Shown here one piece after another: positions 13,977-29,500 of a stretch of 32,000 nucleotides of DNA (positions within the stretch are counted from its first letter, which is position 1; the number at the start of each line of letters is the position of its first letter). The position numbers and the translations under genes are program-made. The notes beneath the pieces were generated by a model. That model made no database searches and was not told the DNA's origin. It worked only from the letters and a program-made list of their open reading frames with translations. This stretch comes from Zestosphaera tikiterensis (lineage in GTDB: Archaea > Thermoproteota > Thermoprotei_A > Sulfolobales > NBVN01): NCBI GenBank assembly GCA_003056265.1, contig NBVN01000002.1, positions 390,001 through 422,000 of the forward strand, given 5' to 3'.

Positions 13977-13990
13977 AAGAAATTATTATT

Positions 13991-14052
13991 GGCCCCACAG
14001 AAGTTCCCCGTGTCTCGGGGTATTGTGAAGTGGGGAGGGCCACCCCCGGCCC
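13991..14052. other. G+C-rich hairpin element in a convergent intergenic gap
   Basis: GGCCCCAC-agaaguu-CCCCG-ugucu-CGGGG-uauugugaa-GUGGGG-agGGCC, followed by ACCCCCGGCCC. Strand and function are unknown. Confidence 0.25.
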
Positions 14053-14092
14053 TTCTATTCCTCATTCAACAATAGAAAAACAACTATCTCCT

Positions 14093-14317: not shown

Positions 14318-14429
14318 CGACCACTTAGCTAAATTTAAAAGACCTTAATAACTGTTTCACCTCGGTATTTAAGACTTCACTATTTAGAGCAGGTAAAACC
14401 TACAGTTTTCATTACCCTATAATTGACGT

Positions 14430-14590
14430 GTTGGGTGCGGGCAACTGTAGCATAGAATGAGCTCCATGCCTTCTCGAAGCTGACAATAGGAGCTGAAGCA
14501 TGAAACTCCCTTAATAAGGGACTTCAGAGAAGCTATGGAAGCCCTAGGGAGAGAACCTCTCCATCATAAACGTCAGGGCTGTTAACGTCT
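14430..14590 (+). ncRNA. Unclassified structured RNA, copy A (AT-drifted paralogue of copy B, possibly decaying)
   Basis: It aligns to the reverse complement of 21409-21568; the first 51 positions align without gaps and differ at 10 sites. Most differences fall in predicted helices and are pair-compatible. G+C is about 50% by my count, and its TATA-equivalent is degraded (TTTTCATT). Confidence 0.5.
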
Positions 14591-17186: not shown

Positions 17187-17279
17187 CTTAATACGTAGCA
17201 ACTCAAGTGAAGCAACACACCATTTTCAAACTAAAGTTATGTTTTAGGGCTGTGACCTATTTGATGTTCGGAGATAAAG

Positions 17280-17287: not shown

Positions 17288-17303
17288 GCTGGTGTTTAAG
17301 TAT

Positions 17304-17505
17304 GTTGGGAATCCGCTTAGGCGATGGGAGCAATGCTCCAAGCCTAGGTGGGGGTGAGCACAACATAGATGGGAGGGTCGTGCCGTTACCCTCGACAGCC
17401 ACCCATGAACCTACGGGATGAGCTAAGCGAGCCCTCTAGGTGGAGGCGGAACTCCCTAGATGAGATCATGAAAACACATAAAATGATTGAAATGAGCATC
17501 TAGGG
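17304..17505 (+). ncRNA. Unclassified structured RNA, locus C
   Basis: It has the same AAAGTTTATAA promoter, GTGTTTAA spacer and GTTGGG 5' end as copy B. Helices: GCUUAGGC/GCCUAGG enclosing GGAGC-AAU-GCUCC; GAGGGU..ACCCUC; UCUAG..GGAG-GCGGAA-CUCC-CUAGA; and a terminal 9-bp stem CCCUAGAUG/CAUCUAGGG. Confidence 0.45.
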
Positions 17506-17656
17506 AGAAACGGAATGCAATCTTTAACTTAAAGAAATAGCTTAAGACTTAATGATGGAGCAAAATAAGGATTAACTTCATCTCTGAATATACGGTTGCC
17601 TAGCGAAGCAGTTTTAAGTTTTATAGGTGTTGAATAGGTATTAATAGTGCTTCATT

Positions 17657-17697: not shown

Positions 17698-17907
17698 GAG
17701 GGTTGGGTTGACGATTCGATGAGGAGACGGAGGTAAGGATGAAACCCAACCTAATGAGGCCCTACCTTCGCTTGAGGGAGTCTAGCGGAGCGATGCGGAA
17801 GTCTAAGGCAATGAAGCTAAGCTCTCGAAAAACGGGGGTGGAGTAAAGATAGGGGCGATGAGTACCTATGTATGTAGATCAAAGCTTACATAGGTACGAA
17901 CCCTTTT
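17698..17907 (+). ncRNA. Unclassified structured RNA, locus D (shares a module with 29372-29470)
   Basis: A GGTGGGTTTATAAG promoter lies 26 nt upstream of GGTTGGG. It has a 9-bp stem GGUUGGGUU/AACCCAACC, the hairpin CUCUCG-AAAAA-CGGGGG and a perfect 10-bp stem UACCUAUGUA/UACAUAGGUA flanked by GAUGAG and CGAA. It ends in CCCTTTT (oligo-T). Confidence 0.5.
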
Positions 17908-21289: not shown

Positions 21290-21408
21290 CTTAATTACCT
21301 AAACAGTAATTCTCTCTCAAGCTTTTATGCCTGAAACCCATCGTTAACTGCAGGATAACCTATATAACCTATAAGAAACCTTATTAACGGTGTTAAGGAA
21401 GGAGTTTA

Positions 21409-21568
21409 GAGCTGACGGCCCCTGTTGTTTATGGCAGGGGTTCTCCCCCTAGGGCTACCATCACCTCTCTGAAGCCCCTCACCGGGAGTGCATCATCTAT
21501 CAGCTCCCGCCGCCAGCTTCGGGAAGGTGTGGGTCTCATCCCAAGCTACGGTTGCCCACACCCAACCA
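21409..21568 (-). ncRNA. Unclassified structured RNA, copy B
   Basis: Non-coding island with 98/159 G+C by my count, between AT-rich flanks. A TTTATAAG box lies 20 nt upstream of the GGTTGGG 5' end. It contains an 8-bp helix GGUGUGGG/CCCACACC, hairpins GGGAG..CUCCC and GGGG-AGAA-CCCC, and the closing stem GCCCU/GGGGC. It is paralogous to 14430-14590. Confidence 0.6.
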
Positions 21569-21587
21569 TGACTTAATTAAACACAAA

Positions 21588-21595
21588 CTTATAAA
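21588..21595 (-). promoter_or_regulatory. TATA box (TTTATAAG on the minus strand) for RNA copy B
   Basis: An A-rich BRE-like AAAAG precedes it, and it lies 20 nt from the GGTTGGG 5' end. The same octamer precedes locus D. Confidence 0.45.
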
Positions 21596-21640
21596 CTTTT
21601 ATCCCACCTTTAAAAACGAGGCTTTCAGTTTAGAGGTGAT

Positions 21641-22237
21641 ATGTTGATGAACGTTATTCACGGAACAACAACCGTTGGTATGAAGGTAAAGGACGGTGTA
21701 GTAATGGCGGCAGATAAAAGAGCGAGTCAAGGTTACTACATAGCACATAAGAAAGTCAAGAAAATCGTTAAAATAGACGATCACGTAGTTATGTCTATAG
21801 CTGGGTTAGTTGCTGACGCGCAGATCCTAGCATCTCAACTGCAGTACCTAGCTAGGCAACATAAGTATGAATTTGGAAAACCTATATCCGTTAAGTCACT
21901 TGCTTCATATTTGGGTTTACTCCTCAACGCCTATAAATACTTCCCGTTTGAAGTGCAGCTGTTGATAGGTGGTTATGACGACCTGCCAAGACTATATGCC
22001 GTTCAATGGTTTGGAGAATATTTCGAGGAGGACTACTCCGTAACGGGGTCCGGAAGCCCTATAGCTGTTGGGTTAATCGAAAGCAGGTATAGTAGAGACT
22101 TACCCCTTGATGAAGCTGTTAAACTAGCTGTAGAGGCGATAAGAGCTTCAGTTAAGAGGGACGTTTTCAGCGGTGAAGGGGTGGACGTAGCCGTCGTTAC
22201 GAAGCAGTCTGTGAACTTCTTAAGTTTTTCTTTATGA
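21641..22237 (+). CDS. psmB: Proteasome beta subunit
   Basis: A short propeptide followed by GTTTVG (catalytic Thr), then DKRAS. Confidence 0.9.
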   Translation: MLMNVIHGTTTVGMKVKDGVVMAADKRASQGYYIAHKKVKKIVKIDDHVVMSIAGLVADAQILASQLQYLARQHKYEFGKPISVKSLASYLGLLLNAYKYFPFEVQLLIGGYDDLPRLYAVQWFGEYFEEDYSVTGSGSPIAVGLIESRYSRDLPLDEAVKLAVEAIRASVKRDVFSGEGVDVAVVTKQSVNFLSFSL

Positions 22238-29196: not shown

Positions 29197-29217
29197 GTGA
29201 CCTTACCTTACAACTGA

Positions 29218-29500
29218 AAGCCTCCCTTCCACACGAATTCTCGAGTCCTTCAGGGATAGGGGTAATGGGTTGGAGGCCCGGCCCGGAGGTGAATGGGGAG
29301 AGATGTACCTCCAAACCAATAAATTGCCTGAGGAAGAACCCCATCCTTCAGGATGAACCGCCTTTTGCCGTAGGGAGTTCGGTGAAGTCCTAGGCAACTA
29401 AGGTGTATGAGCTCCCGCAGACGGGGGATGGAAAGCCGTGATGAGCTCGGCTGTACCGAATCCGAAACATGAAGGCACGGCTCGAGCAAACGGTTATGGC
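29218..29500 (+). ncRNA. Unclassified structured RNA, locus E, between spt4 and rps24e
   Basis: A 400-nt non-coding gap inside a normally compact operon. A TTTATATA box at 29189-29196 predicts a start near 29219. Helices: GGUUGGAGG/CCUCCAAACC, CCUGAGG/CCUUCAGG, CUCCCG-CAGA-CGGGGG and GCCGUG/CACGGC. The three overlapping ORFs on both strands look like G+C artefacts. Confidence 0.5.

What the first reader, a model, noticed from the sequence alone, without database searches (positions are those of the whole stretch)
14430..14590. Second copy of the same RNA 7 kb away on the opposite strand, with pair-preserving substitutions and AT drift (copy A)
The reverse complement of 21409-21568 aligns along its length to 14430-14590. 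The first 51 positions align without gaps and have 10 mismatches. Seven of those ten fall in the two predicted 5' helices. Position 17:25 switches U-A (A) to C-G (B), a true compensatory pair. Positions 34, 38 and 39 turn G-C, G-C and U-A pairs of B into G.U, G.U and U.G wobbles in A. Only position 9 breaks a pair (C x A). In the 3' domain both copies keep a closing stem (GCCCU/AGGGC versus GCCCU/GGGGC) around a hairpin with a different stem sequence (GGAGAG/CUCUCC versus GGGG/CCCC). Between them sits a conserved single-stranded CAUAAAC. A purine tract differs only by transitions (GACAAUAGG versus GGCGGCGGG). Copy A is only about 50% G+C and its TATA-equivalent is degraded (TTTTCATT). It may therefore be a decaying or functionally relaxed paralogue. 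Together the two copies are the best direct evidence in this window for selection on RNA structure.
Basis: seen in the sequence. Interest (0 to 1): 0.65.

Follow-up and report, generated by a model that had tools for sequence, protein, structure and literature searches.

The report
Strain-variable small RNA gene cassette, two copies
The two look-alike 160-base RNA-like sequences are real, but they behave like copies of a small insertable cassette: one is intact yet missing from a sister strain, the other is decaying, and the substitutions between them do not show selection on RNA structure.

Summary
Window 14430-14590 (+) and 21409-21568 (-) are homologous: 71% identity, alignment z=48, and 10 mismatches in the first 51 positions, exactly as described. 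The structural interpretation is not supported. Copy A keeps no more of copy B's predicted pairs than random placement of the same substitutions would (35/53 against a null of 38). The consensus fold is not better than column shuffles. This organism's mutations are about 14:1 transitions, so G.U wobbles arise readily by chance. Only B folds significantly well (z=-2.9; A z=-0.8). Between strains, A changes about three times faster than its surroundings, and 5 of 6 changes move away from the B-like state, so A is a decaying copy.

The new finding is that copy B is a clean 215-nt cassette. It comprises a BRE/TATA promoter plus the RNA, flanked by a perfect 9-bp direct repeat (CTCTAAACT). A 98.9%-identical strain has the empty site with a single repeat copy. 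Both copies are absent from the syntenic spacers of the nearest sister species. No Rfam family, tRNA, ORF, terminal inverted repeat or homologue elsewhere was found.

The best reading is a lineage-specific, insertable sRNA-gene cassette with K-turn/K-loop-like motifs. Its function is unknown.

The parts
14430..14590 (+). Copy A RNA body: 49% G+C, a degraded paralogue
   Evidence: Aligns to B at 71% identity. Fold z=-0.83. Diverges 4.35% between strains against a 1.3% background. Present in same-species contigs L087-L091 and absent from sister species L092/L093.
14406..14414 (+). TTTTCATTA, a weak TATA-like box about 16-24 nt upstream of copy A
   Evidence: Read from the sequence. A similar TTTTGTTTA may exist in the sister species spacer, so it may belong to the flank rather than to the element.
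14487..14513 (+). Copy A central hairpin tip with the K-loop-like motif GGAG-CUGA-AGC-AUGA-AA-CUCC
   Evidence: CUGA (14493-14496) and AUGA (14500-14503) are conserved with B. The motif reading is an inference.
21409..21567 (-). Copy B RNA body: 61% G+C, three hairpin domains, well folded
   Evidence: MFE -73 kcal/mol, z=-2.89, 1 of 200 shuffles as good, and the centroid is nearly identical to the MFE. No Rfam hit.
21412..21626 (-). Copy B cassette of 215 nt (promoter plus RNA), present in the window strain and absent from strain L100
   Evidence: L100 aligns to window 22918-21627 and 21411-17902, with the two blocks overlapping by 9 nt in L100, at 98.9% identity.
21627..21635 (-). Left direct repeat CTCTAAACT
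   Evidence: Exact 9-mer at both cassette ends and a single copy in L100. It is the longest direct repeat in the flanks (shuffle P=0.015).
21403..21411 (-). Right direct repeat CTCTAAACT
   Evidence: As for the left repeat.
21589..21600 (-). BRE/TATA of copy B (AAAAG TTTATAA), centred about 25 nt upstream of GGUUGGG
   Evidence: Read from the sequence. It is 28/32 identical to the promoter of the neighbouring GC-rich island at 17296 (z=6.7).
21526..21562 (-). B hairpin 1: 8-bp stem GGUGUGGG/CCCACACC capped by CAA-CCG(UAGCU)UGG-GAU-GA, a non-consensus K-turn-like cap
   Evidence: The middle pair of the 3-bp cap stem is C-G in B, U.G in L088 and U-A in A.
21483..21509 (-). B hairpin 2 tip: CGGGAG-CUGA-UAG-AUGAUG-CA-CUCCCG, resembling a C'/D' K-loop
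   Evidence: There is a weak sub-threshold Rfam match of 21477-21523 to C/D sRNA sR58 (18.6 bits against a gathering score of 55, E=0.09).
21418..21455 (-). B hairpin 3: GCCC/GGGC stem around GGGG-GAGAA-CCCC and the single-stranded GCCAUAAACAAC

Best explanation
Copies A and B belong to a lineage-specific, ORF-free cassette of about 215 bp. It consists of a strong archaeal BRE/TATA promoter driving a GC-rich RNA of about 160 nt that folds into three hairpins. Two hairpin tips carry tandem-GA motifs of the K-turn/K-loop type, the kind bound by L7Ae in archaeal guide RNPs. The cassette enters or leaves intergenic DNA as a DNA unit and leaves a 9-bp direct repeat. B is an intact copy, probably recent, that is still polymorphic among strains. 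A is an older copy, no longer under constraint, that is drifting towards AT by G>A and C>U transitions and small indels. Shown here: the homology, the clean 215-nt indel with its 9-bp repeat, absence from syntenic sites in relatives, the stable fold of B only, the fast unconstrained change of A, and the absence of an ORF or any known RNA family. Inferred, not shown: transcription, protein binding at the GA motifs, how the cassette moves, and what the RNA does.
For: A and B are homologous. Strain L100 (98.9% identity in the flanks) has the empty site, with one CTCTAAACT where the window has CTCTAAACT + 215 nt + CTCTAAACT. Zestosphaera relatives have a 109-nt egsA-proteasome spacer with no room for the RNA. 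The nearest sister species lacks both copies: its NTPase-L38e spacer is 127 nt against 292 nt, and its egsA-proteasome spacer holds unrelated 27%-GC sequence. The B promoter is a textbook BRE/TATA and closely matches that of another local GC-rich island. B folds significantly well and A does not. A shows strain-level acceleration and AT drift. No ORF is shared by A and B, and the indels between them are not multiples of 3. The CUGA...AUGA and GAUGAG motifs are conserved in both copies. Mobile or duplicating sRNA genes have precedent in archaea (PMC6009581, read).
Against: Only two copies were seen, so a multi-copy family is not demonstrated. No terminal inverted repeats were found and no transposase lies in the window, so the mobilisation route is unknown. 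Copy A has no significant flanking repeat, and its upstream 57 nt is only marginally similar to B's (P=0.057). The L100 state could be a deletion between the repeats rather than the pre-insertion state. The sister species L081 has a different 141-nt insert at the same site between CTCTAAACT and GTAAACT, which fits an old insertion that later decayed equally well. There are no expression data. The K-turn in hairpin 1 is non-consensus (A.A at the 2b.2n position plus a bulged base).
Confidence: 0.45

Rival explanations
1. B is an ordinary host small-RNA gene, for example an L7Ae-bound RNA related to modification guides. It was duplicated once, leaving A as its pseudogene. It was lost from strain L100 by recombination between two short repeats and lost or relocated in the sister species. 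No mobile element is involved.
For: B has a strong consensus promoter shared with neighbouring RNA-like islands. Its fold is significant and its G+C is 61% in a 40% genome. It carries K-loop-like motifs and gives a weak C/D-like Rfam match. The sister species has an insert with the same TATA between similar repeats at the same site, which is compatible with an ancestral gene that decayed there. A is clearly a decaying duplicate.
Against: The deleted segment in L100 is exactly promoter plus RNA, bounded by a perfect 9-bp repeat, which is what a target-site duplication looks like. No orthologue was found at either syntenic site in any relative, or anywhere in about 1.5 Mb of fetched loci. A gene dispensable in a 98.9%-identical strain is not a core function.
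Confidence: 0.3
2. The copies are non-functional pieces of foreign, higher-GC DNA (from a virus, plasmid or another archaeon) captured in intergenic DNA. Their GC-richness and fold reflect their origin, not selection, and both are decaying.
For: No test shows structural constraint. A decays at about the neutral rate or faster. The copies are absent from relatives.
Against: B carries a well-placed BRE/TATA, and the RNA body starts at the expected transcription start. B's fold is well defined (z=-2.9, centroid nearly identical to the MFE). Searches of phage, plasmid and IMG/VR sequences found no source, and the single viral hit was a chance match.
Confidence: 0.15
3. The central hairpin is a box H/ACA-type pseudouridylation guide, and the two copies guide different targets.
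For: In B the hairpin has a 6-bp lower stem (GAAGCU/GGCUUC), a 5/6-nt internal loop, a 6-bp upper stem, an apical K-loop, and AGA directly after the lower stem. There is a very weak match to Pyrobaculum H/ACA-like sRNA 207 (13.8 bits, E=7.4).
Against: The published constraints (PMC2377435) require H1 of at least 7 bp and an ANA-to-target distance of 14-15 nt. B has 6 bp and only 12 nt between H2 and AGA. A has a 4-bp lower stem. AGA can also pair into a longer irregular stem. The two 'guide' strands and the upper stem are largely self-complementary.
Confidence: 0.07

Closest known systems
MITE-like C/D box sRNA element of Pyrobaculum calidifontis (Lui et al. 2018, PMC6009581)
   Same: A small, ORF-free element carrying an sRNA-like sequence. 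It is species-specific, sits in intergenic regions that do not align with related genomes, and its copies decay.
   Different: That element has conserved terminal inverted repeats and at least 15 copies, and its core is a recognisable C/D sRNA. Here there are no inverted repeats, only two copies were seen, the unit carries its own promoter, and the RNA is about 160 nt without canonical terminal C and D boxes.
Archaeal box H/ACA sRNAs (e.g. Pyrococcus Pab/Pf RNAs, PMC2377435)
   Same: GC-rich hairpins of 60-70 nt with an internal loop, a 5-6 bp upper stem, an apical K-turn/K-loop and an ANA triplet after the stem. One to three hairpins per RNA, for a total of 70-220 nt.
   Different: The lower stem is too short and the ANA distance too short. 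Hairpins 1 and 3 have no pocket. The 3' end has no ACA in copy A. No Rfam H/ACA model matches.
GC-rich ncRNA islands in AT-rich hyperthermophile genomes (Klein, Misulovin and Eddy 2002, the Hgc RNAs; from my own knowledge)
   Same: A discrete island of 100-300 nt at about 60% G+C, without an ORF, in a genome of about 40% G+C. This is the classic signature of a structured RNA gene.
   Different: The Hgc RNAs are conserved among related species. This one is strain-variable and absent from the sister species.
Box C/D sRNA internal C'/D' K-loop
   Same: CUGA, then 3-5 nt, then (A)UGAUG, with tandem G.A pairs possible. There is a sub-threshold Rfam match to sR58.
   Different: The flanking 'guides' pair with each other. 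There is no RUGAUGA/CUGA pair at the termini, and the spacing is not about 12 nt.

Membership tests
Any Rfam 15 family | Covariance-model score at or above the gathering threshold | tested here: not met
   No hits at gathering threshold over the window. No hits at E<=1 over the window. Only chance-level hits at E<=10 in 401-nt local searches; the best was sR58 at 18.6 bits against a gathering score of 55.
tRNA / tmRNA | Cloverleaf detectable by ARAGORN | tested here: not met
   No genes were found in the window.
Archaeal box H/ACA sRNA | Lower helix H1 of at least 7 bp | tested here: not met
   6 bp in B (GAAGCU/GGCUUC, including one G.U). 4 bp plus a mismatch in A. Criterion taken from PMC2377435.
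Archaeal box H/ACA sRNA | Upper helix H2 of 5-6 bp, and an internal loop of 5-11 nt on each strand | tested here: inconclusive
   Met in B: CGGGAG/CUCCCG, with loops GGCGG and GUGAGG. In A, 5 of 6 pairs form in one register or 4 bp in another, and a competing CCC/GGG hairpin exists in both copies.
Archaeal box H/ACA sRNA | K-turn or K-loop in the apical part | tested here: met
   CUGA...AUGA(UG) at the hairpin tip is conserved in both copies. This is a motif-level match only; protein binding was not tested.
Archaeal box H/ACA sRNA | ANA triplet 14-15 nt from the target position | tested here: not met
   AGA follows the stem, but only 12 nt separate H2 from AGA in B.
Archaeal box H/ACA sRNA | Pocket complementary to an rRNA/tRNA site flanking a U | not testable with these tools
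   No rRNA of this organism or of a close relative is held. Only a Methanoregulaceae 16S is present among the loci.
Archaeal box C/D sRNA | Terminal C box (RUGAUGA) and D box (CUGA) brought together by a terminal stem, with guides of about 12 nt | tested here: not met
   By inspection, only an internal D'/C'-like pair is present. GUGAUGG in B is GCUAUGG in A, and no CUGA lies near the 3' end.
MITE (miniature inverted-repeat transposable element) | Terminal inverted repeats | tested here: not met
   The best local match between the first 45 nt and the reverse complement of the last 45 nt is at chance level (P=0.24 for B, 0.90 for A).
MITE (miniature inverted-repeat transposable element) | Target-site duplication and occupied/empty alleles | tested here: met
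   This holds for B only: a perfect 9-bp CTCTAAACT on both sides and a single copy in strain L100. A has no significant flanking repeat.
MITE (miniature inverted-repeat transposable element) | Many copies per genome | not testable with these tools
   Two copies lie in the 32-kb window, and none in about 258 kb of same-species and near-relative loci. The rest of the genome is not available.
IS200/IS605 TnpB omega-RNA | Lies at the 3' end of a tnpB gene or transposon right end; insertion makes no target duplication | tested here: not met
   There is no TnpB or OrfB ORF next to either copy. A 9-bp duplication is present at B. TnpB fragments exist only in distant relatives L085/L086 and show no similarity to the RNA.
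Protein-coding remnant | A shared reading frame | tested here: not met
   B's 36-codon ORF stops after 8 codons in A. Indels between the copies are 1-2 nt.

The most novel reading that the evidence does not exclude
This Zestosphaera-like archaeon may carry a so-far undescribed class of promoter-bearing, inverted-repeat-less mobile RNA-gene cassettes. Each would deliver a GC-rich K-turn RNA, make a 9-bp target duplication, and rewire neighbouring promoters; copy B sits between the proteasome gene and its former promoter. The other local GC-rich islands (17296-17510, 17698-17900, 29205-29500) share the promoter module and are also missing from the sister species, so they would be further members.
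Probability: 0.2. Interest if true: 0.7.

Novelty: new variant of a known kind. Interest (0 to 1): 0.45.

Why it matters
If the cassette reading is right, the window shows an archaeal small-RNA gene caught in three states: a fresh insertion (B), an empty allele in a sister strain, and a decaying copy (A). That gives a direct view of how small-RNA genes are gained, moved and lost in hyperthermophilic archaea. It also shows how such insertions can replace the promoter of an essential neighbouring gene. There is a methodological caution as well: in a genome with a roughly 14:1 transition bias, wobble-preserving differences between two paralogues are not evidence for structural selection.

Tried and rejected
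- **Known RNA families.** Rfam was searched at gathering and permissive thresholds over the window and locally and gave nothing usable. ARAGORN found nothing. I considered RNase P RNA (a CR-I-like GGAAGCCC) and SRP RNA from memory and dropped both, because no RNase P or SRP model scores even at E<=10.
- **Homologues elsewhere.**
  - nhmmer and blastn found nothing in the 80 loci around FttA from GTDB genomes.
  - Nothing turned up in syntenic loci of relatives.
  - Two exact-pattern scans of metagenome contigs gave 0 hits. These scans did not return L090, a 2.7-kb JGI contig (fetched) that carries copy A and the first scan's pattern, so this collection evidently lacks such short contigs.
  - Two IMG/VR scans gave one hit, L096, which is a chance match in a GC-rich phage.
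  - blastn against the phage and plasmid collections found nothing.
- **Decayed remnants in the sister species.** By eye there were suggestive G>A patterns, but global alignments of L081 and L092 spacers to A and B are at chance level (z 0.3, 0.6, 0.0, -1.1). Only the promoter-like AGTTTATAAG segment matches.
- **Element boundaries.** No terminal inverted repeats. The direct repeat for copy A is not significant (P=0.30), and an ATTTAAA(T)AGACCTT repeat lies in TATA-like low-complexity sequence that the sister species also has.
- **Relatedness to the other GC-rich islands.** None at sequence level in the RNA bodies.
- **Contig breaks in Logan assemblies as element boundaries.** The breaks fall inside the islands as well as at their edges, so they may reflect coverage or microdiversity.
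- **Coding potential.** Rejected.

Full report
**1. The observation**

Window 14430-14590 (+) and the reverse complement of 21409-21568 are clearly homologous. The first 51 positions align without gaps and have 10 mismatches, at positions 9, 17, 23, 25, 27, 33, 34, 38, 39 and 45. Over the full length there are 113 identities, 35 transitions, 12 transversions and 4 gap columns. The local alignment scores 112 against 15.6 for shuffles, z=48. The shared 22-mer occurs nowhere else in the window, with 0 expected. G+C is 49% in A and 61% in B, in a window of about 40%.

**2. Context and organism**

The window is core genome of a crenarchaeon. Around copy A lie ribosomal protein L38e and a DUF84 NTPase. 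Around copy B lie glycerol-1-phosphate dehydrogenase (egsA), proteasome beta and FttA/aCPSF1. The nearest named relatives are Zestosphaera (Desulfurococcaceae) MAGs at 75-78% proteasome identity, and one unnamed MAG reaches 92%. Neither copy overlaps an ORF shared by both. The indels between them are 1-2 nt, and B's 36-codon ORF stops after 8 codons in A. There is no tRNA and no Rfam family at any threshold.

**3. Is there selection on structure?**

B alone folds well: -73 kcal/mol, z=-2.89, and the centroid is almost identical to the MFE. A does not (z=-0.83).

I took B's MFE structure as a reference chosen without sight of A. A's 47 substitutions preserve 35 of 53 pairs, whereas placing the same substitutions at random positions preserves 38.2+/-2.3 (P=0.95). 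Substitutions are not depleted in paired positions: 34 of 47 fall there, against 66% of positions paired. The RNAalifold consensus energy of A+B has z=-1.0 against column shuffles, and the structure conservation index is 0.55 against 0.59. A helix set that I hand-picked for compatibility looks good (94% paired, five double-sided changes, 5/500 shuffles), but that is circular.

The background mutation spectrum between strains is 82 transitions to 6 transversions. Any transition in a Watson-Crick pair gives a wobble half the time. For the 5' helices, five pair-preserving steps out of six has P about 0.11. The all-transition purine tract simply reflects the spectrum.

The best single case is pair 17:25. 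It is C-G in B, U.G in strain L088 and U-A in the window's A, a textbook path through a wobble. One pair is not a test.

**4. Copy A is decaying**

The same species was found in several public assemblies. L087, L089 and L090 carry A identical to the window. L088 (98.6% identical overall) differs at 7 columns, or 6 events, in the 161 nt of A. That is 4.35% against a 1.3% background (Poisson P=0.006), and three of the events are indels. At five of the six events L088 has the B-like state. The window's A has therefore moved away from the B-like state by G>A, C>U and small indels. Overall, B-to-A changes are 29 strong-to-weak against 10 weak-to-strong.

**5. Copy B is an insertable cassette**

Strain L100 comes from the same sample as L088 and is 98.9% identical to the window in the flanks. 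Its egsA-proteasome spacer is only 133 nt. L100 aligns to window 22918-21627 and to 21411-17902, and the two blocks overlap by 9 nt in L100.

Read on the minus strand:
- Window: ...CAC[CTCTAAACT]GAAAGCC...AAAAGTTTATAAG...GGTTGGG...GGGGCCGTCAG[CTCTAAACT]CCTTCC.
- L100: ...CAC[CTCTAAACT]CCTTCC.

The variable unit is therefore 215 nt (21412-21626), consisting of promoter plus RNA and flanked by a perfect 9-bp direct repeat. That repeat is the longest in the flanks (shuffle P=0.015).

- The promoter is canonical: BRE AAAAG and TATA TTTATAA, centred about 25 nt upstream of GGUUGGG.
- There are no terminal inverted repeats.
- No transposase lies nearby.

**6. Relatives lack both copies**

Zestosphaera MAGs have a 109-nt egsA-proteasome spacer. 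The nearest sister species has a 127-nt NTPase-L38e spacer where the window has 292 nt. At the B site it has a 141-nt, 27%-GC insert between CTCTAAACT and GTAAACT. That insert shares only AGTTTATAAG..TTTA.TTAA with the cassette. Alignments of these spacers to A or B are at chance level.

Two histories therefore remain open:
- (a) a recent insertion of B in the window's strain, plus an independent or different insertion at the same site in the sister species;
- (b) an old insertion that decayed in the sister species and was precisely deleted between the repeats in L100.

Either way the 9-bp repeat looks like a target-site duplication.

**7. Anatomy and likely working**

B has a possible terminal stem (GUUGG/UCAGC) and three hairpins.
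- **Hairpin 1** is an 8-bp stem capped by CAA-CCG(UAGCU)UGG-GAU-GA. This can be drawn as a K-turn, though with A.A at the second G.A position and a bulge.
- **Hairpin 2** ends in CGGGAG-CUGA-UAG-AUGAUG-CA-CUCCCG, a good C'/D'-type K-loop. This region gives a weak, sub-threshold match to C/D sRNA sR58 (E=0.09).
- **Hairpin 3** encloses the single-stranded CAUAAAC.

The GA motifs are kept in both copies. I tested hairpin 2 against the published H/ACA rules (PMC2377435). The upper stem, the loop sizes, the K-loop and an ANA triplet fit in B. The lower stem (6 bp, where at least 7 is required) and the ANA distance (12 nt, where 14-15 is required) do not fit, and A is worse. Canonical terminal C/D boxes are absent.

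I therefore do not file it in either family. At most it resembles them in being a likely L7Ae-type RNP RNA, and that is inference.

**8. Verdict**

The best explanation (0.45) is a lineage-specific, promoter-carrying sRNA-gene cassette with one young copy and one decaying copy. The main rival (0.30) is a host sRNA gene with a pseudogene copy and repeat-mediated losses.

The closest precedent is the MITE-like sRNA element of Pyrobaculum calidifontis (PMC6009581). This cassette differs from it in lacking inverted repeats, carrying its own promoter and encoding a longer RNA of no recognised family. Only two copies were seen and there are no expression data, so interest is moderate.

Noticed in passing
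window 17296-17510 (+): Another GC-rich, ORF-free island. Its promoter (GATAAAGTTTATAACGCTGGTGTTTAAGTAT) is 28/32 identical to copy B's, and it also starts GUUGGG. The RNA body is unrelated to A and B, and Rfam gives no hit. Its AT-rich 3' part (17452-17507) has an 8-bp terminal stem CUCCCUAG/CUAGGGAG and weak C/D-like boxes. The island is absent from the sister species, whose PhoU-XerA spacer is 70 nt.
   Followed up: partly
window 17698-17900 (+): A third GC-rich island. It lies behind a GTTTATAAGTTT promoter, starts GGGUUGGGUU...AACCCAACC with GAUGA motifs, and ends in a perfect 11-bp hairpin GUACCUAUGUA/UACAUAGGUAC. It has no Rfam hit and is absent from the sister species.
   Followed up: partly
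window 29205-29500: A GC-rich island of about 290 nt between spt4 and rps24e with no Rfam hit. It contains GUGAUGAG and GGAAAGCC motifs. The sister species has only a 180-nt AT-rich spacer here. The 98.9%-identity strain (L097) has 3 SNPs in the first 80 nt or so, against a 1.1% background.
   Followed up: partly
window 21589-21641 and 21340-21400: In the empty-site strain L100, the AT-rich TATA-like stretch GTTAATAAGG lies about 35-45 nt upstream of the proteasome-beta start codon. In the window the B cassette pushes it 224 nt further away. The cassette's near-palindromic TATA (TTTATAA/TTATAAA) now lies about 45 nt upstream of the ATG, so it may act in both directions.
   Followed up: no
loci L087, L088, L097-L100, L103 (same species, Logan assemblies): Contigs repeatedly end at or inside the GC-rich islands, at window positions 17249, 17286, 17802, 17902, 21440, 21567, 29220 and 29282. 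The cause is unknown; possibilities are a coverage drop in GC-rich hairpins, microdiversity or repeats.
   Followed up: partly
window 13985-14065: A short GC-rich hairpin region (CCCCAC...CCCCG UGUCU CGGGG...GUGGGG) between the convergent RHH gene and L38e gene. The spacer length (117 nt) is the same in the sister species, so unlike the other islands it may be conserved.
   Followed up: no
L081 1150-1310 (sister species, egsA-proteasome spacer): A 141-nt, 27%-GC insert at exactly the site of copy B, between CTCTAAACT and GTAAACT, carrying the same AGTTTATAAG box. It is either a fully decayed cassette or a second insertion at a preferred target.
   Followed up: partly
L085 1286-2244 and L086 1960-2918 (Zestosphaera MAGs): Fragmented TnpB-like (Cas12f1-like_TNB) ORFs interrupt an RsmB-type methyltransferase gene region. 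This shows that IS200/IS605-type elements are active in the wider lineage. They have no similarity to the A/B RNA.
   Followed up: no
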